Shown piece after piece: positions 14,532-30,168 of a stretch of 64,000 nucleotides of DNA. The stretch is from an uncultured archaeon (GTDB lineage: Archaea; Asgardarchaeota; Thorarchaeia; Thorarchaeales; Thorarchaeaceae): contig CAYWJO010000010.1 of assembly GCA_964458565.1 (NCBI GenBank), positions 20,473-84,472 on the forward strand, in the 5' to 3' direction. Both the position numbers and the translations under genes were made by a program. Position 1 is the stretch's first letter. Every line of letters starts with the position of its first letter. The notes under the pieces are model-generated. The model saw only the letters and a list, made by a program, of their open reading frames with translations, was not told the DNA's origin and searched no databases.

Positions 14532-15521
14532 TTACATCCATGTTTCAAGTGTATCCTGAACGATGAAGAACTGTTTCCAGAGCCCAACAAGGGTATCTAG
14601 TGTTGATTCTGTACGCGTATCACCTAAAACAGGAGCCAATAATCGACTCACTCTTGATGGAACTGGGGAATTCAATGATGTATCGATGTGACTAACAGTC
14701 AGGTAGTTACCGTAATCAAAGACCGCTCTGGCTGCTAGGAATTCAGATCGTTCCGAATACGAAAAGCCTCGAGCTTTCAAAAGTCCCTCAAGACCCCCGA
14801 ATCTTCTCAGGAGAACTACTCCTTTTCGGGGACCAATACCTGGCACGCCTTTTTTATGAAAATCACATCCGCATACTATTGCCAAATCTCGAAGCTCCTC
14901 GAGCTCTAAATCAATGACTTCCTGAATTCCTTGAAGAGTGACTTGCTCCATCTGGTTCTTTGACAATTGCAAACTGCGGATGACATGGGGACTTCCAAAG
15001 AGTATCGCATCCATGTCATTGGACGCCACAGAACCAACAAGCCCCTCACGGCACATAACAGCACACATCAACTCTGCTTCAGAGGATGCTGATACTACAG
15101 GAACACCAATTGAAGAGCATATATCCTTGAGATGTTGTGCCGCAAAGTAGGTTCTCAATGCAGGACTATTATTCAGAGGTTCAGCAATCTCTTGATTAAA
15201 TGGATCACCTTCTTTTTTGTACCAACGATAGAGACTGTTAGCGATATGAATCAGTTCTGGGTCTGCATCCCGCTTCAATGTTTCAGGCGGACCATCGAAT
15301 ACAAAGATAGGAATGATATGTTTCTTCAGAGACGTACGTATAAGACTTAACCCAATGGATACATGAGTCAGAGGTATACGTTCTCTAACACGTGTAACTC
15401 TGTTGATTGTTGACATTCTACGAATCATATAGTTGAACGCATCTATAGCAATTTTATTCATTGTCAATTCTGAAATATCAACCCAACGCCAAGGAATGAA
15501 GTCCCAACCCTTCACTCCCAA
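14532..15521 (-). CDS. FEN1/XPG-family 5' nuclease (divergent) with C-terminal PIP box
   Basis: MGVKG, IAIDA, FVFDG, SEAE, SNDMDAILFG, CGCDF, GVPGIGP; C-terminal QDTLETWM. Confidence 0.88.
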   Translation of the reverse strand: MGVKGWDFIPWRWVDISELTMNKIAIDAFNYMIRRMSTINRVTRVRERIPLTHVSIGLSLIRTSLKKHIIPIFVFDGPPETLKRDADPELIHIANSLYRWYKKEGDPFNQEIAEPLNNSPALRTYFAAQHLKDICSSIGVPVVSASSEAELMCAVMCREGLVGSVASNDMDAILFGSPHVIRSLQLSKNQMEQVTLQGIQEVIDLELEELRDLAIVCGCDFHKKGVPGIGPRKGVVLLRRFGGLEGLLKARGFSYSERSEFLAARAVFDYGNYLTVSHIDTSLNSPVPSRVSRLLAPVLGDTRTESTLDTLVGLWKQFFIVQDTLETWM

Positions 15522-15523
15522 TA

Positions 15524-16240
15524 CTAGAACCTCCGTAATGGTCGGATGCCAAACTCACCCATTCTTACCATGAGACTCTCAGGTTTTTTCAAAGTTGGTG
15601 ATCTTTCAATCTTAATCTGGAAAGTGTAACCGTGATTTTCAAAAGCGGTTATTCGAATCATGGAATCAATTGAGTGCTCCAGAACATTTCCCCCTACAGG
15701 TCGTGATGCACCAGTTATAGGATCTCGGGATGAATGGTCAGTGATTACAAGATGACTTGGAGAATCAATCATTGTTTCTCTTAGAGTTTCAAGCATGGAA
15801 AACAGGCGACGTTGCCTTTTCTTACTACTAGGAGGCAAATTGAGATTGAGAGCACCTGTAAGACTATCAAGCACAATTATCGAGTAATTTGTAGCAACAG
15901 ATGCAATAATTTCCTCAATATCATCCAAACCCATGACATTTGCTACCATCAATTTCTGTAATGCATCTTCATTAGCATCACCCATAAGGCGTCTTGCAAG
16001 TGTTGGTTTGAAGTTGGTTCCTGAATCAAGATACACAGTCAGTTTACCGGAACGAATACATCCAACTGCAATCTCATGAGAGAGAATTGTCATTGGTGAT
16101 CTCATTGGACCGTGAATAAGTGATATTTGTCCCGGGATGAGAACTGAACTAAACAAATCGTTTAGCTGCGGCGGGTAGAGTATTATTTCTGATTGCAAGT
16201 CAATTGAAAATTCATCAAGTGTCGTCATTTTGCTCTTCAA
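15524..16240 (-). CDS. RecA/RadA-fold paralog lacking Walker A Lys (probably inactive)
   Basis: PGQISLIHGPMRSPMT (degenerate P-loop), VYLDSGTNF, IIVLDSLT, PVGGNVLEHSID. Confidence 0.8.
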   Translation of the reverse strand: MKSKMTTLDEFSIDLQSEIILYPPQLNDLFSSVLIPGQISLIHGPMRSPMTILSHEIAVGCIRSGKLTVYLDSGTNFKPTLARRLMGDANEDALQKLMVANVMGLDDIEEIIASVATNYSIIVLDSLTGALNLNLPPSSKKRQRRLFSMLETLRETMIDSPSHLVITDHSSRDPITGASRPVGGNVLEHSIDSMIRITAFENHGYTFQIKIERSPTLKKPESLMVRMGEFGIRPLRRF

Positions 16241-27942: not shown

Positions 27943-28994
27943 GCTGTTACCTCCGCTTCAACAACTTCTTCTTCATCATCTGGGCGTTGAAGGTCAGTGC
28001 TGAGACCTATACTCTCGAGATACTCAATAACATCCGGTTCGATTTTCTTCCGTTCTTTTTCATCATTGTAAAAACCACCCCATCCAATACTCAAACCCAC
28101 TTCGAAGTCAGGTAGCCCAGCATGATCCTTTAGCCGATATCTTCTCTTGTTACCCTTTCCAGGGGCTGCTTGAAACCTATAGTCACTTGCATGAGAAACA
28201 ACATGCCCTCCCACAGGTGCATTAGGCTGAGCAAAGAGACCAGGTTTTGAGATTGCTTGATTTGTATACAGGAAGATAACATCTGTTGCAGTACCGACCC
28301 GCCTCATTAAGTTCATCAGGGCATTGATCTTTTGTTGACGGATTCCAAGATTGTATAGCCCAATGTATTCAGCTCTGAAGAATCCAGTTAACGAATCTAC
28401 TACTACTACCTTAACATTGTCCTCAACACAAATCTTGGGAATCCTTTCAAAAAGCTGAGTGAGATGATTTGTTGTAACAGGTGAAGCAATCCTGATATTA
28501 GCCATTTGAACATCAACATCCATTCCCCATCTCTTGATATTTGCACGAAGCGTTCTTGGTTTGAGTGACTTTTCACTGTCTAACCATAATACACGTCCTT
28601 CAAGTCCCCCCTCTTCGAGGGGTAACAGTGCTCGAACTGCAAGATAAGCGCACATCTGTGTCTTTCCACCAGCAGCCTTCCCGTAAAACTCGATTAACGA
28701 ACCAGGTTCAAAACCACCTTGAAGTGATTGATCAAAAGCATCAATCCCGGTCTTCAATCGTGATTTGGAGTCGATCTCCTTCTCAATATCAATTGCGGAC
28801 CTGAAATCAAACATCCCAAGCATTTCACGAGCGGCACGAATTATCTTCTTGCAAGTTCCTTCACCAATTTTAGTTCGTTCCTGAAGGTCATCTGCGTTCT
28901 GAACTGAAAGTAGTTCAGCAGTAGTAACAAATGCAGCCTGCAGTTGTTTTGCCACAGTTGGACCAATACCTGGAACCTCAGTTAATTCTGTCAC
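27939..28994 (-). CDS. radA: Full-length, divergent RadA/Rad51-family recombinase
   Basis: HhH (VPGIGPTVA), FRSA (FxxA polymerisation motif), GKAAGGKTQ, LPLEEGGL, VVVDSL, FRAEY..RQQK, TNQ, GGHVVSHAS. Confidence 0.88.
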   Translation of the reverse strand: MTELTEVPGIGPTVAKQLQAAFVTTAELLSVQNADDLQERTKIGEGTCKKIIRAAREMLGMFDFRSAIDIEKEIDSKSRLKTGIDAFDQSLQGGFEPGSLIEFYGKAAGGKTQMCAYLAVRALLPLEEGGLEGRVLWLDSEKSLKPRTLRANIKRWGMDVDVQMANIRIASPVTTNHLTQLFERIPKICVEDNVKVVVVDSLTGFFRAEYIGLYNLGIRQQKINALMNLMRRVGTATDVIFLYTNQAISKPGLFAQPNAPVGGHVVSHASDYRFQAAPGKGNKRRYRLKDHAGLPDFEVGLSIGWGGFYNDEKERKKIEPDVIEYLESIGLSTDLQRPDDEEEVVEAEVTA

Positions 28995-29449
28995 TAGATA
29001 TATCCCTCCTGAACTAGATGGTCTTCAATAGGGCCACGAATTGGAACTAGACGAAGGAAAGTTTCAAACGAAATCAATGGAACAAGCAAATCGTTTCCAC
29101 TACAGACTAGTTCAATTCCAGATAGCCAATGCCGAATTTCGATCTGTGCCTCTGGCGTAACTCTAAACCACAGACCTTCAGGAGCTAACGTTCCGGTGAC
29201 ACTGACATATCCACCCAGTGTATCGTAAATTGAAATAACTCCATTCATCGATTCGATACATATTGGCCCTATACCACCCAACATATCACACATGTATTCG
29301 ATATCTTCAAGGAAAGGGTCCCAAAGCCAAGAAGGACTTCTCTTTCCTGAAATTTGCATGCCTGTTACAGCACCCGCTAACCAATCAGGATCGATGAAAT
29401 CAAATCGCGCATGACTCACGTCCTTATACATATCACTTGCAAGATTCAT
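28994..29449 (-). CDS. Hypothetical protein (about 151 aa)
   Basis: ATG at 29449 after GGAGG, ATGA overlap with upstream stop; its stop overlaps the radA GTG start. Confidence 0.7.
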   Translation of the reverse strand: MNLASDMYKDVSHARFDFIDPDWLAGAVTGMQISGKRSPSWLWDPFLEDIEYMCDMLGGIGPICIESMNGVISIYDTLGGYVSVTGTLAPEGLWFRVTPEAQIEIRHWLSGIELVCSGNDLLVPLISFETFLRLVPIRGPIEDHLVQEGYI

Positions 29450-30168
29450 ATCATAACCTCCTGTATCTCCAGGTTTCTTTGATATCCCACAATATACGGG
29501 AGTGGTTCGAGAGATTCGAGCCATTCAATGAATTCACGCACTACTTTCCTTGAGTACTGCCTTGTAGAGAGTAGAGACCTGAGAACAGATGTTGACACTC
29601 CAATCAGGTGATTTAGTGCTACATACCGCGCCTCATCTGGAATTGACTGATACCAGTCCATGGTCACATAACCGGATTCACCCGCAAGATACTCAGGCCA
29701 CTCAAATGACCACTCACCATCTATTGGTTCATGATTTAGAGCATCTAGCATTATTTCCAACCATGAGTTCCACTTTAAGATGGCAGAACATACCTTCCTT
29801 GATAGTTCCCCCATGGTCTCAGACTCAAAGATCAAGGTAATCCTACCTGGACCACAGTCTGAGACCGCTCCATCAACTATACCCAGTTTCTTCCCAGATG
29901 TAAGAAGCGACAATCCAGTCACAAACCCTGGAATATCACAGGGCATATGTGATGATACATCGAAGTCTACGAATCTCTCGAAGGACTCCAGAATACTACT
30001 TCTTAGCCCTACCACAAGCTTCAATCTCGGACCGATATCCAATTCCGCGGACAATAAAATCCGGTCCGAATTAGTAACTAGGCTCTGGAGATAAAATGTA
30101 ACTTCCTTCGGTTCACACTGAAGGTCAGATTCGATCCAATCAGGCCAGAGCTTTGACTGTTTGTGCAC
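29446..30168 (-). CDS. Hypothetical protein, first gene of the operon
   Basis: 240-aa ORF with AGGTGA RBS before the GTG start. Confidence 0.7.
   Translation of the reverse strand: MHKQSKLWPDWIESDLQCEPKEVTFYLQSLVTNSDRILLSAELDIGPRLKLVVGLRSSILESFERFVDFDVSSHMPCDIPGFVTGLSLLTSGKKLGIVDGAVSDCGPGRITLIFESETMGELSRKVCSAILKWNSWLEIMLDALNHEPIDGEWSFEWPEYLAGESGYVTMDWYQSIPDEARYVALNHLIGVSTSVLRSLLSTRQYSRKVVREFIEWLESLEPLPYIVGYQRNLEIQEVMI

What the first reader, a model, noticed from the sequence alone, without database searches (positions are those of the whole stretch)
14532..30168. 15-gene operon joining a recombination toolkit to membrane proteins and a HerA/VirB4-like ATPase: candidate Asgard DNA-transfer/recombination system
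Seen: 15 co-directional genes over 15.6 kb, each overlapping or within a few nt of the next, several with GGAGG/AGGTG RBS. They encode a full-length RadA, a RadB-like ATPase, a Walker-A-less RecA paralog, an XPD-type Fe-S helicase, a Hel308/Ski2 helicase with a SWIM finger, a PIP-box FEN1-like nuclease, a Zn-ribbon-wHTH protein, four membrane proteins (one a HerA/VirB4-like ATPase) and four soluble unknowns. Known: archaeal radA, radB, xpd, hel308 and fen1 are usually dispersed. Membrane proteins plus a HerA/VirB4-type ATPase form the core of the crenarchaeal Ced DNA importer. In eukaryotes, HELQ, RAD51 paralogs, SWIM-domain SWS1, RTEL1/FANCJ and FEN1/EXO1/GEN1-family nucleases act together in homologous recombination. 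Inference: a dedicated, probably inducible module that takes DNA across the membrane or between cells and feeds it into strand exchange. No integrase, relaxase or transposase is present, so it looks chromosomal. I do not recognise this gene set as a described system.
Basis: partly seen in the sequence, partly recalled or inferred. Interest (0 to 1): 0.95.

Follow-up and report, generated by a model that had tools for sequence, protein, structure and literature searches.

The report
Membrane-anchored recombination operon of Asgard archaea
A tightly packed 15-gene operon in a Thorarchaeota genome joins spare, fast-evolving copies of DNA-recombination enzymes to membrane proteins and an ATP-dead secretion-type (VirB4-like) protein; looser versions occur in other Asgard lineages, pointing to an old, undescribed machine that handles DNA at the cell membrane.

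Summary
There are 15 co-directional, overlapping genes on the minus strand (14532-30168). They encode a RadA paralog, two short RecA-fold paralogs (one with a dead Walker A), an XPD-type Fe-S helicase, a Hel308-type helicase with a SWIM-like CxC..CxH insert, a PIP-box FEN1 paralog, a Zn-ribbon protein, four membrane proteins and four orphans.

The genome keeps separate housekeeping radA, xpd, hel308 and fen1. Gene order g01-g15 is colinear in every sufficiently long locus among 46 species-level loci, nearly all Thorarchaeota.

The 777-aa membrane protein has a VirB4 fold (Z 28.5), but its P-loop lacks Lys and Ser/Thr in every relative checked.

New here:
- The module is not confined to Thorarchaeota. 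Looser clusters pairing the dead VirB4-like protein with the SWIM helicase, in several also with RadA, RecA-fold or FEN1 paralogs, occur in at least six other Asgard families, including the complete Freyarchaeum genome.
- The cluster-linked RadA and FEN1 copies group apart from housekeeping copies.
- A complex prediction docks the SWIM insert onto the VirB4-like protein (0.66; best control 0.00).

DNA transport itself is not shown, and no channel or pilin homolog was found. The scan has found this operon before in other Thorarchaeota genomes. I found no description in the paper library searched.

The parts
30169..30401 (-). Upstream intergenic region with an A/T-rich TATA-like stretch (TTTTCATTTTATATCGGTTATATC) about 60-90 nt before the g01 start. 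Putative promoter.
   Evidence: Read directly. No motif conserved across orthologous upstream regions was evident. Inference only.
29446..30168 (-). g01: 240-aa soluble orphan. A 24%-identical paralog lies on contig C12 of the same genome.
   Evidence: No Pfam, PHROG, NCBIfam or PADLOC hit. A PDB profile search found nothing. Orthologs occur at the same position in relatives. Paralog.
28994..29524 (-). g02: about 150-176-aa soluble orphan. The listed start overlaps g01 by 79 nt, so the true start is probably later.
   Evidence: No family hit. Conserved position, 26-41% identity.
27939..28994 (-). g03: full-length RadA paralog ('RadA-2') with HhH N-domain, intact Walker A/B and an acidic tail.
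   Evidence: Rad51 Pfam 2e-49. Scores below the NCBIfam RadA cut-off, 248.5 against 259. 35% identical to the housekeeping RadA on C57. Forms a separate clade in trees. Motifs invariant.
27496..27942 (-). g04: 148-aa protein with an N-terminal CxxC..CxxC Zn-ribbon, a basic linker and a helical C-domain (possible winged helix).
   Evidence: Cys pairs conserved in 30-31 of 32 orthologs. Alignment. No family hit. The winged-helix assignment was not tested.
26889..27503 (-). g05: 204-aa soluble orphan, the best-conserved of the unknowns (52% mean column identity).
   Evidence: Alignment A3. No Pfam, PHROG, NCBIfam or PDB hit. Also present in G025.
24936..26885 (-). g06: XPD/Rad3-type 5'-3' helicase paralog with an intact 4-Cys Fe-S domain and DEAH box.
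   Evidence: DEAD_2, Helicase_C_2 and HBB. Best PDB hits are archaeal XPD, 1e-32. 25% identical to the housekeeping XPD on C25. Cys and DEAH invariant in 38 orthologs.
24343..24939 (-). g07: 198-aa membrane protein with 1-2 N-terminal TM helices and a roughly 130-aa conserved domain, encoded just upstream of the VirB4-like gene.
   Evidence: Hydropathy across orthologs. Alignment A6. No PDB or Atlas relative outside Thorarchaeota.
24075..24476 (-). g08: small (about 85-120 aa) soluble orphan. The ORF as listed overlaps g07 by 134 nt.
   Evidence: Weak but recurrent tblastn matches at the same position in relatives. Alignment.
21749..24082 (-). g09: 777-aa membrane-anchored VirB4-fold pseudo-ATPase. 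It has a TM hairpin (about 44-92), an N-domain, a P-loop-fold domain (290-654) with a dead Walker A (GG....R), and a C-terminal winged helix.
   Evidence: AF2 model, pLDDT 72. Foldseek top hits TrwK/VirB4 and HerA. VIA: VirB4 4ag5 Z 28.5, rmsd 2.6 over 321 aa; HerA Z 24.6. Dead P-loop. Predicted to bind g10.
19542..21752 (-). g10: Hel308/Ski2-type helicase paralog (motif II DEIQ) with a beta-rich insert ending in a SWIM-like CxC..CxH motif (residues about 497-552).
   Evidence: Pfam. PDB Hel308 1e-73. Motifs invariant in 38 orthologs. The same motif occurs in helicases of related clusters in other Asgard families.
17876..19555 (-). g11: 559-aa membrane protein with a soluble N-domain, a central TM hairpin (about 210-252), a helical C-domain and an acidic tail.
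   Evidence: Hydropathy. Alignment A5. No PDB or Atlas hit.
17153..17869 (-). g12: 238-aa RecA-fold paralog (RadB-like) with an intact Walker A.
   Evidence: NCBIfam RadB 5.6e-9, far below cut-off. hhalign to g03, probability 97.7%. GxxxxGKT invariant.
16215..17180 (-). g13: 321-aa membrane protein with four N-terminal TM helices and an alpha/beta C-domain (147-306) of no recognised fold.
   Evidence: AF2 model, pLDDT 84. Foldseek best E 0.018. VIA-wide best Z 6.8. Atlas TM-score below 0.5.
15524..16240 (-). g14: 238-aa RecA-fold paralog with no Walker A in any ortholog. Walker B Asp is kept.
   Evidence: Rad51 Pfam 3.4e-9. hhalign to g03, probability 98.9%. Motifs.
14532..15521 (-). g15: FEN1/XPG-family nuclease paralog with an intact active site and a C-terminal PIP box (QDTLETWM).
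   Evidence: XPG_N and XPG_I. Best PDB hit archaeal FEN1, 5e-27. 28% identical to the housekeeping FEN1 on C46. Acidic residues invariant; PIP box in 25 of 26 orthologs.

Best explanation
The operon encodes a membrane-anchored homologous-recombination machine that belongs to an old Asgard module.

Shown or directly supported:
- It carries its own second set of recombination enzymes: a RadA paralog, one active and one dead RecA-fold mediator-like paralog, XPD-type and Hel308-type helicases of opposite expected polarity, and a PIP-box flap nuclease.
- These are encoded together with four membrane proteins.
- One membrane protein has a VirB4 (type IV secretion ATPase) fold whose nucleotide-binding loop is dead.
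- The model predicts that this protein binds the SWIM-containing insert of the Hel308-type helicase through a family-specific loop and its C-terminal winged helix.

Inferred mechanism:
1. The dead VirB4-like protein, probably as a ring, together with g07, g11 and g13, forms a passive platform or portal in the membrane.
2. The docked helicases supply the motor activity and unwind or pull DNA that arrives at the membrane. The source is most likely DNA taken up or exchanged between cells.
3. The RecA-fold paralogs load the dedicated RadA on the single strand.
4. After strand invasion and PCNA-dependent synthesis, the FEN1 paralog trims flaps.
For: Composition and intact catalytic motifs.

Separate housekeeping copies in the same genome: RadA on C57, XPD plus a RadB-like gene on C25, Hel308 on C5, FEN1 on C46.

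Conservation:
- Order g01-g15 is colinear in every long locus of 46 species-level loci.
- 52 of 76 family genomes hold g09.
- Among the 24 closest family genomes, five of the six lacking g09 also lack the g03-type RadA.

VirB4 fold: Z 28.5, rmsd 2.6 over 321 aa, against HerA 24.6 and TrwB 21.6. Full-length TrwK aligns over residues 97-670.

Conserved TM segments in four proteins.

Occurrence beyond Thorarchaeota:
- The g09-like and SWIM-helicase genes lie within about 10 kb of each other in seven Asgard families: f1, f2, f8, f9, f12, f15 and f19.
- The complete Freyarchaeum genome has a 12-gene divergent cluster with RadA, RecA-fold and FEN1 paralogs, the SWIM helicase, the dead VirB4-like protein and membrane proteins of g11- and g13-like layout. 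That genome also has two other RadA genes and another FEN1.
- Cluster-linked RadA copies of f1, f2, f7, f12 and f19 form one clade (97/96), apart from all housekeeping RadA. With the f9 copies included they still sit on one side of a branch (63/92).
- Cluster-linked FEN1 copies lie on one side of a 90/97 branch from housekeeping FEN1.

Complex prediction, g09 290-777 with g10 400-736:
- Median score 0.66 (runs 0.68, 0.66, 0.60); best of 3 controls 0.00.
- The mark was reached by 58 of 80 solved complexes and 2 of 110 mismatched pairs. These counts hold only roughly, because my own alignments were used.
- The runs agree in at least 49% of contacts, and partner pLDDT is at least 68.
- The interface is made largely of invariant or near-invariant residues of both families: g09 T431, D434, F477-Y478-G479, Y707, L710, T760; g10 R499, E500, G507-G508 and the CxC region.
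- I know of no solved VirB4-Hel308 complex, so a pass from memory is unlikely.

Precedents:
- The hexameric ATPase PINA binds Hel308/Hjm through its C-terminal domain (PMC6061704 abstract).
- Ted DNA-import loci often carry Rad50 and HerA-like genes (PMC9905601).
Against: - No motor in the VirB4-like protein. The Walker A Lys and Ser/Thr are absent in all 41 orthologs and in all 101 long relatives among 1.84 billion representatives.
- No VirB6/CedA-like channel or VirB2/CedA1-like pilin was recognised, and g13 matches no known fold.
- Hydropathy suggests even numbers of TM helices in g09, g11 and g13. If so, most of the protein mass is cytoplasmic and little is exposed outside. This is inference.
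- About a quarter to a third of family genomes searched lack the operon. Some of these are over 90% complete, so it is dispensable.
- A closed Thorarchaeota genome (G237) keeps g04-g15 but has no g01-g03 and only the housekeeping RadA.
- XPD is part of the cluster only in f1 and f2, going by the loci examined.
- No expression, localisation or DNA-transfer data exist.
Confidence: 0.45

Rival explanations
1. It is a membrane-tethered repair or replication-restart factory for the cell's own chromosome. The dead VirB4-like protein only anchors broken or stalled DNA and a specialised recombination set to the membrane. No DNA crosses the membrane.
For: - The VirB4-like protein is ATP-dead in all relatives.
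- No channel or pilin homolog was found.
- The soluble domains are probably cytoplasmic (inference).
- The PIP box on g15 points to PCNA-coupled synthesis.
- The predicted g09-g10 docking fits an anchor role as well as a portal role.
Against: - The housekeeping RadA, XPD, Hel308 and FEN1 are present and much more conserved: 80-85% identity for RadA against 48-63% for g03. A second complete, fast-evolving set for the same substrate is therefore hard to explain.
- The scaffold is a VirB4 fold, which in all known cases belongs to trans-envelope DNA or protein transfer (PMC9905601).
- Four membrane proteins are more than a simple tether needs.
Confidence: 0.25
2. It is an anti-virus or anti-plasmid defence system. 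Membrane sensors and a HerA/VirB4-type scaffold would recruit helicases and a nuclease against invading DNA, as in Hachiman (Ski2-like HamB), the HerA-Sir2 and HerA-DUF4297 systems, or Zorya.
For: - g10 matches HamB profiles (5.7e-38) and g09 folds like defence HerA proteins.
- Its proteins evolve several times faster than the housekeeping paralogs.
- It was not found in part of the family.
Against: - No PADLOC hit for g03, g09, g11, g13, g14, g15 or g01.
- The HamB hits cover only the generic motor domain.
- The DinG profile hit of g06 is generic: the housekeeping XPD scores higher, 348 against 265 bits.
- It is single-copy, with strictly colinear 15-gene order across a whole family, and its paralog clades span Asgard classes. 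That is unlike the patchy, shuffled distribution of defence islands.
- A full strand-exchange set (RadA plus mediator-like paralogs plus a PIP-box flap nuclease) builds joint molecules rather than destroying DNA.
Confidence: 0.1
3. It is the remnant or cargo of an integrated conjugative element, plasmid or provirus, not a cellular system.
For: The VirB4 fold is the hallmark of conjugative elements. The flanking genes are not conserved between genomes.
Against: - No integrase, relaxase, transposase, capsid or replication-initiator domain in the 15 genes.
- No tRNA in the window.
- G+C is 0.423 against 0.409 for the genome.
- The flanks are ordinary metabolic and transport genes.
- One copy per genome, and trees with deep lineage-specific clades.
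Confidence: 0.03

Closest known systems
Ced (Sulfolobales) and Ted (Thermoproteales) DNA-import systems, domesticated type IV secretion systems (PMC9905601)
   Same: Both are chromosomal archaeal systems built around a VirB4-fold protein plus small and polytopic membrane proteins. Ted loci also often carry recombination-type genes (Rad50, HerA-like helicase, ParA-like). The proposed purpose, feeding DNA into homologous recombination, is the same.
   Different: - CedB and TedB are taken to power translocation, whereas g09 has a dead Walker A in all relatives.
- No CedA/TedA (VirB6-like, 6-7 TM) or CedA1/TedC (VirB2-like pilin) homolog was recognised.
- The Asgard module carries its own RadA, RecA-fold, FEN1, Hel308 and (in Thorarchaeota) XPD paralogs, which Ced and Ted do not.
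- There is no sequence similarity to Ced or Ted components.
HerA-NurA with Mre11-Rad50 (archaeal end-resection operon), and PINA-Hjm(Hel308)-Hjc
   Same: Both pair a ring-forming P-loop protein of the HerA/FtsK/VirB4 superfamily with nucleases or helicases of recombination, encoded in one operon. PINA binds Hel308/Hjm through its C-terminal domain (PMC6061704), as predicted here for g09 and g10.
   Different: HerA and PINA are soluble, active ATPases. g09 is membrane-anchored and catalytically dead, and its best structural match is VirB4 rather than HerA (Z 28.5 against 24.6).
Bacterial natural-transformation machinery (ComEC channel, ComFA helicase, DprA, RecA). This comparison rests on my own knowledge.
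   Same: The logic proposed here is the same: a passive membrane passage, a docked helicase-type motor that pulls DNA in, and dedicated loading of a recombinase on the incoming strand.
   Different: No homology between the components, and no ComEC-like channel was found. The analogy is functional only and untested.
Eukaryotic recombination accessory set (DMC1 beside RAD51, RAD51 paralogs, HELQ, SWIM-domain SWS1, FANCJ/RTEL1, FEN1/EXO1/GEN1)
   Same: Both hold a second recombinase beside the housekeeping one, active and dead RecA-fold paralogs, a Hel308/HELQ-type helicase, a SWIM-type zinc motif, an Fe-S XPD-family helicase and an XPG-family nuclease.
   Different: All best sequence matches are to archaeal RadA, XPD, Hel308 and FEN1, not to the eukaryotic paralogs. 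Here the SWIM motif is inside the helicase rather than in a separate protein. No tree with eukaryotic sequences could be built here.

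Membership tests
Ced/Ted-type DNA importer (domesticated T4SS) | VirB4-fold protein | tested here: met
   VIA Z 28.5, rmsd 2.6 over 321 aa to VirB4 4ag5. TrwK aligns over residues 97-670.
Ced/Ted-type DNA importer (domesticated T4SS) | The VirB4-like protein is an active ATPase (Walker A GxxxxGK[ST]) | tested here: not met
   Orthologs read GG....R, with no Lys or Ser/Thr, in 41 of 41. No canonical Walker A in any of 101 long relatives.
Ced/Ted-type DNA importer (domesticated T4SS) | VirB6/CedA/TedA-like polytopic channel protein (6-7 TM) | tested here: inconclusive
   The only polytopic protein, g13, has 4 TM helices. Its confident model has no match: Foldseek E 0.018, VIA-wide Z 6.8, Atlas TM-score below 0.5. 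g07 and g11 were not folded.
Ced/Ted-type DNA importer (domesticated T4SS) | VirB2/CedA1/TedC-like pilin (small two-TM protein) | tested here: inconclusive
   No small two-TM protein of pilin size in the operon by hydropathy. g07 has 1-2 TM helices plus a 130-aa domain and no PDB profile hit. No structural test was made.
RadA/Rad51 recombinase | HhH N-domain, RecA core with Walker A/B, L1/L2 region; scores as the family | tested here: met
   Rad51 Pfam 2e-49 and HHH_5. Walker A/B invariant. However, it scores below the NCBIfam RadA equivalog cut-off (248.5 against 259) and forms a separate clade from housekeeping RadA.
XPD/Rad3 Fe-S helicase | DEAD_2 and Helicase_C_2 domains, four Fe-S cysteines, DEAH box | tested here: met
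   Below the NCBIfam rad3 cut-off (170.5 against 247), so it is a divergent paralog.
Hel308/Ski2-like DNA helicase | Ski2-type motor plus ratchet and C-terminal domains | tested here: met
   Motor domains at 1e-73 to Hel308 structures, and a weak match to archaeal helicase domain 4. Differs by the SWIM-like insert and DEIQ motif II. Far below equivalog cut-offs.
FEN1/XPG nuclease | XPG_N and XPG_I with the acidic metal-binding residues; PIP box | tested here: met
   Below the archaeal FEN1 equivalog cut-off (120.6 against 352).
Known anti-phage defence systems (PADLOC-DB 2.0) | System-specific proteins beyond generic helicase domains | tested here: not met
   Only generic helicase-domain hits: HamB for g10 and DinG/XPD for g06, the latter also scoring higher with the housekeeping XPD. 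Nothing for the other eight proteins tested.

The most novel reading that the evidence does not exclude
The module is an ancestral Asgard apparatus for DNA exchange between cells, coupled to a dedicated recombination set. Its paralog lineages (a second recombinase, active and dead RecA-fold mediators, a SWIM-bearing HELQ-like helicase, an XPG-family nuclease) would be related by descent, not just by analogy, to the accessory and meiotic recombination toolkit of eukaryotes. That would make it a prokaryotic forerunner of sex.
Probability: 0.08. Interest if true: 0.98.

Novelty: categorically new. Interest (0 to 1): 0.86.

Why it matters
[quoted passage not shown] How they exchange and recombine DNA is unknown.

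This work defines a conserved, probably ancient gene module. It holds its own recombinase lineage, mediator-like paralogs, two helicases and a flap nuclease. The complex prediction ties this set to the membrane through a catalytically dead relative of the type IV secretion ATPase.

If the module handles incoming DNA, it would be a third, independent archaeal solution to DNA uptake or exchange, beside Ced/Ted and halophile cell fusion. It would also be a concrete candidate for the roots of specialised recombination in eukaryotes.

Even if it acts only on the cell's own chromosome, it shows a new use of a VirB4 fold as a passive membrane platform for a helicase.

It yields directly testable predictions:
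- g09 binds g10 through named residues.
- The two helicases have opposite polarity.
- RadA-2 carries out strand exchange.
- g15 binds PCNA.

Tried and rejected
- Type IV CRISPR DinG link for g06. The strong PADLOC hit (2.7e-79) is a generic archaeal XPD profile, because the housekeeping XPD scores higher. Rejected.
- Virus origin. No PHROG hit for nine of the ten proteins tested; g12 gave only weak generic P-loop hits (best: Sak4-like ssDNA-annealing protein, 3.8e-5).
- Orphan proteins. PDB profile searches of g05, g01, g11 and g07 gave nothing. ESM Atlas feature searches of g07 and g11 returned only g07's own Thorarchaeota cluster or nothing.
- g13 fold. No convincing match in PDB (Foldseek or VIA-wide) or the Atlas. 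The weak ACT-like (CASTOR1) and ESX-component rows are at chance level.
- Internal paralogy. All-against-all hhalign found only the g03/g12/g14 relationship.
- Conserved flanks. None of this window's neighbours is conserved next to the operon in relatives.
- Regulatory signals. No conserved upstream motif was seen. Terminator-like sites inside the operon are at chance level, 10 against 11.7 expected.
- Vertical descent by rank correlation. Housekeeping RadA identity against g03 or g09 identity across 12 genomes was weak (rho 0.28-0.43, not significant), because the housekeeping values span only 80-85%. Uninformative.
- Literature. Four searches found no description of the operon, of a SWIM-bearing Hel308 or of a dead VirB4 in Asgard archaea. 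The library lacks most subscription journals.

Full report
**What is there.** The window is G000:C10:20473-84472 of a 3.73-Mb, 93-contig genome. Fifteen ORFs (g01-g15) lie on the minus strand between 14532 and 30168. Their spacings are -79, -1, -4, -8, +3, -4, -134, -8, -4, -14, +6, -28, -26 and +2 nt. A 233-nt A/T-rich gap precedes g01. Terminator-like sites inside the block are no more frequent than in shuffles. G+C is 0.423, against 0.409 for the genome. The flanks are ordinary genes: a two-subunit 2-oxoacid (pyruvate/indolepyruvate-type):ferredoxin oxidoreductase ending 5 nt from g15, a Rab-like GTPase fused to a beta-propeller, and an ABC transporter. The window holds no tRNA.

**The enzymes.**
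- g03 is a full-length RadA-type protein (Rad51 2e-49, HhH domain). g06 is an XPD-type helicase (DEAD_2, Helicase_C_2, HBB). g10 is a Ski2/Hel308-type helicase. g15 is an XPG/FEN1-type nuclease. g12 and g14 are short RecA-fold proteins.
- Best matches among solved structures are archaeal RadA (9e-56; human RAD51 1e-43, DMC1 4e-35), archaeal XPD (1e-32), Hel308 (1e-73) and archaeal FEN1 (5e-27).
- All fall below NCBI's equivalog cut-offs.
- Profile-profile comparison confirms that g03, g12 and g14 are mutual paralogs and finds no other internal paralogy.
- Over 26-41 orthologs the catalytic motifs are conserved (mostly invariant): Walker A/B of g03 and g12, the four Fe-S cysteines and DEAH of g06, motifs I, II (DEIQ) and VI of g10 with its CxC..CxH motif, and the acidic residues of g15. 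g14 lacks a Walker A in all orthologs.
- g15 ends in a canonical PIP box, Q-x-T-L-E-x-[WF]-x, in 25 of 26 orthologs.

**They are spare copies.** The same genome has another RadA (C57, 35% identical to g03), an XPD next to a RadB-like gene (C25), a canonical Hel308 without SWIM (C5) and another FEN1 (C46). Across the family the housekeeping RadA is 80-85% identical, whereas g03 is 48-63% and g09 31-47%. Branches in the g03 clade are several times longer.

**The membrane part.**
- Hydropathy gives conserved TM segments in g07 (1-2), g09 (an N-terminal hairpin), g11 (a central hairpin) and g13 (four).
- The g09 model (pLDDT 72) has a long TM helix, an N-domain, a P-loop-fold domain (290-654) and a C-terminal winged helix.
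- Foldseek ranks TrwK/VirB4 of plasmid R388 and Sulfolobus HerA first.
- In the second-look alignment the best match is the VirB4 C-domain: 4ag5, Z 28.5, rmsd 2.6 over 321 residues. DndH-C follows at 25.1, HerA at 24.6 and TrwB at 21.6. Full-length TrwK aligns over residues 97-670.
- The Walker A position reads GG....R, with an invariant Arg and no Lys or Ser/Thr, in all 41 orthologs.
- A profile search of 1.84 billion cluster representatives finds only 338 relatives. None of the 101 long ones has a canonical Walker A. The whole family is therefore catalytically dead by sequence.
- g13 gives a confident model (pLDDT 84) of four TM helices plus an alpha/beta domain, with no convincing match in any library.
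- g01, g02, g05, g07, g08 and g11 have no detectable relatives outside this system.

**Conservation in Thorarchaeota.** g09 occurs in 18 of 24 of the closest family genomes and in 52 of 76 in a wider sample, one copy each. A scan of species-representative genomes returned 46 loci, almost all titled Thorarchaeota. In every locus long enough, the order g01-g15 is colinear (also 13). Among the 24 closest family genomes, five of the six without g09 also lack the g03-type RadA. Neighbouring genes differ between genomes. One closed genome (G237) keeps g04-g15 but has no g01-g03 and only the housekeeping RadA.

**Beyond Thorarchaeota (new here).**
- In a 300-genome sample of the phylum, the g09 profile also hits families f2, f7, f8, f9 (51 of 68, as 1250-1300-aa proteins), f12, f13, f15 and f19 (6 of 6, as roughly 530-aa proteins). 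It found nothing in several other families, for example f5 (0 of 28) and f14 (0 of 11).
- The C-terminal half of g10 hits the same lineages, and lies within about 10 kb of the g09-like gene on the same contig in f1, f2, f8, f9, f12, f15 and f19.
- G060 is the complete genome GCA_037305845.1 of Freyarchaeum deiterrae.
- There, two divergent operons encode, on one strand, a FEN1 paralog, a 4-5-TM protein, a RecA-fold paralog, the SWIM helicase and a protein with a central TM hairpin.
- On the other strand they encode a RadA paralog, a large TM protein with a peptidase-M28-like domain, two small TM proteins and the dead VirB4-like protein.
- That genome has two further RadA genes and another FEN1 elsewhere.
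- Similar linkage is seen in G195 (f9), G065 (f12) and G030 (f7).
- In these lineages the g09 equivalent is split into an N-terminal TM protein of roughly 250-360 aa and a C-terminal protein of roughly 480-530 aa.
- The CxC..CxH motif sits at the same place in the helicases of all four other lineages checked.

**Trees.**
- RadA: the cluster-linked copies of f1, f2, f7, f12 and f19 form one clade (97/96), apart from all housekeeping Asgard RadA. With the long-branched f9 copies added, all linked copies still sit on one side of a branch, with weak support (63/92).
- FEN1: all cluster-linked copies lie on one side of a 90/97 branch from the housekeeping copies.
- The trees are unrooted and the linked copies are long-branched. 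A single old duplication is therefore the simplest reading, not a proven one.

**Physical link.** A complex prediction was run with g09 290-777 and g10 400-736, using 25-row alignments.
- Scores were 0.68, 0.66 and 0.60 (median 0.66), against 0.00 for the best of three controls.
- The mark was reached by 58 of 80 solved complexes and 2 of 110 mismatched pairs. These counts hold only roughly, because my own alignments were used.
- The runs share at least 49% of contacts, and partner pLDDT is at least 68.
- The interface joins a family-specific g09 loop (T431-D434, 469-480 including F477-Y478-G479) and the winged helix (703-721, 743-762) to the beta-rich SWIM insert (499-538) and a later helical part (570-646) of g10.
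- Most of these residues are invariant or nearly so.
- This supports binding but does not show it.

**Reading.**
- The best-supported statement is that this is a dedicated, membrane-anchored recombination machine of old Asgard ancestry. A dead VirB4-like protein serves as a platform for the SWIM helicase.
- Whether DNA crosses the membrane through it is inference. It rests on the VirB4 ancestry, the number of membrane partners, the redundancy with housekeeping repair, and the precedent of Ced/Ted (PMC9905601).
- The dead P-loop, the lack of recognisable channel or pilin proteins and the probably cytoplasmic bulk of the membrane proteins keep a purely intracellular tethering role open.
- Defence and mobile-element readings fit poorly.

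**Earlier work.** The scan had already met this operon in other Thorarchaeota genomes, with similar verdicts. Those notes called it Thorarchaeota-only, which the present searches contradict. Four literature searches found no description.

Noticed in passing
window 30402-32753 (-): 783-aa protein joining FG-GAP/BBS2/BBS7-like beta-propeller blades to a complete Ras/Rab-type GTPase domain (Ras 3.6e-47). It lies directly upstream of the operon, separated by a 233-nt gap. The position is not conserved in relatives.
   Followed up: partly
L039:1628-3175 (-); L016:17454-19070 (-); similar ORFs in L024, L030, L034, L036, L047, L050: A GH3-family (acyl-acid amido synthetase-like) gene of about 515-540 aa sits just upstream of g01 in many Thorarchaeota relatives, where it is divergent. 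In G025 it is co-directional. It is not next to the operon in this window.
   Followed up: partly
G000:C12:10277-11029 (L138:478-1230): A 250-aa paralog of the orphan g01 (24% identity over 222 aa) lies elsewhere in the same genome. Its neighbourhood was not examined.
   Followed up: no
G000:C19 about 21747-23603 and G000:C15 about 40927-41910: Two further Ski2-like helicases in this genome carry CxC..CxH motifs: the C19 copy (751 aa) at residue 562, the C15 copy (841 aa) at residue 738. No other operon paralog lies beside them by tblastn. Their relation to g10 is unresolved.
   Followed up: no
G000:C25:21464-24930 (L136): The housekeeping XPD (645 aa) and a RadB-like gene (236 aa) lie within 1 kb of each other, separated by a 255-aa ORF on the opposite strand.
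   Followed up: no
G237:C1 (closed genome; L038): This closed Thorarchaeota chromosome has g04-g15 in order but no g01-g03. Only the housekeeping RadA is found in the whole genome. A 925-aa FtsX-like permease gene lies upstream instead.
   Followed up: partly
G006:C15:37183-38151; G012:C31:8658-9623; G018:C17:25582-26520: Extra, very divergent RadA-like genes (end branches of 2.7-4.5 changes per column). One sits directly beside the g03 ortholog in G006. They group loosely with the operon clade, but long-branch attraction cannot be excluded.
   Followed up: no
L072 (ENA metagenome scaffold): 10001-12544 and 12547-14931: An 847-aa member of the dead VirB4-like family lies directly upstream of a 794-aa protein with a weak HerA_C match, in a cluster without recognisable recombination genes. 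Its origin is unknown.
   Followed up: no
G031:C1:76608-81214: Two FEN1-family genes lie about 4 kb apart in one Asgard genome (f8). G069 (f15) also has two. In the tree both sets fall with the housekeeping group as two separate pairs.
   Followed up: no
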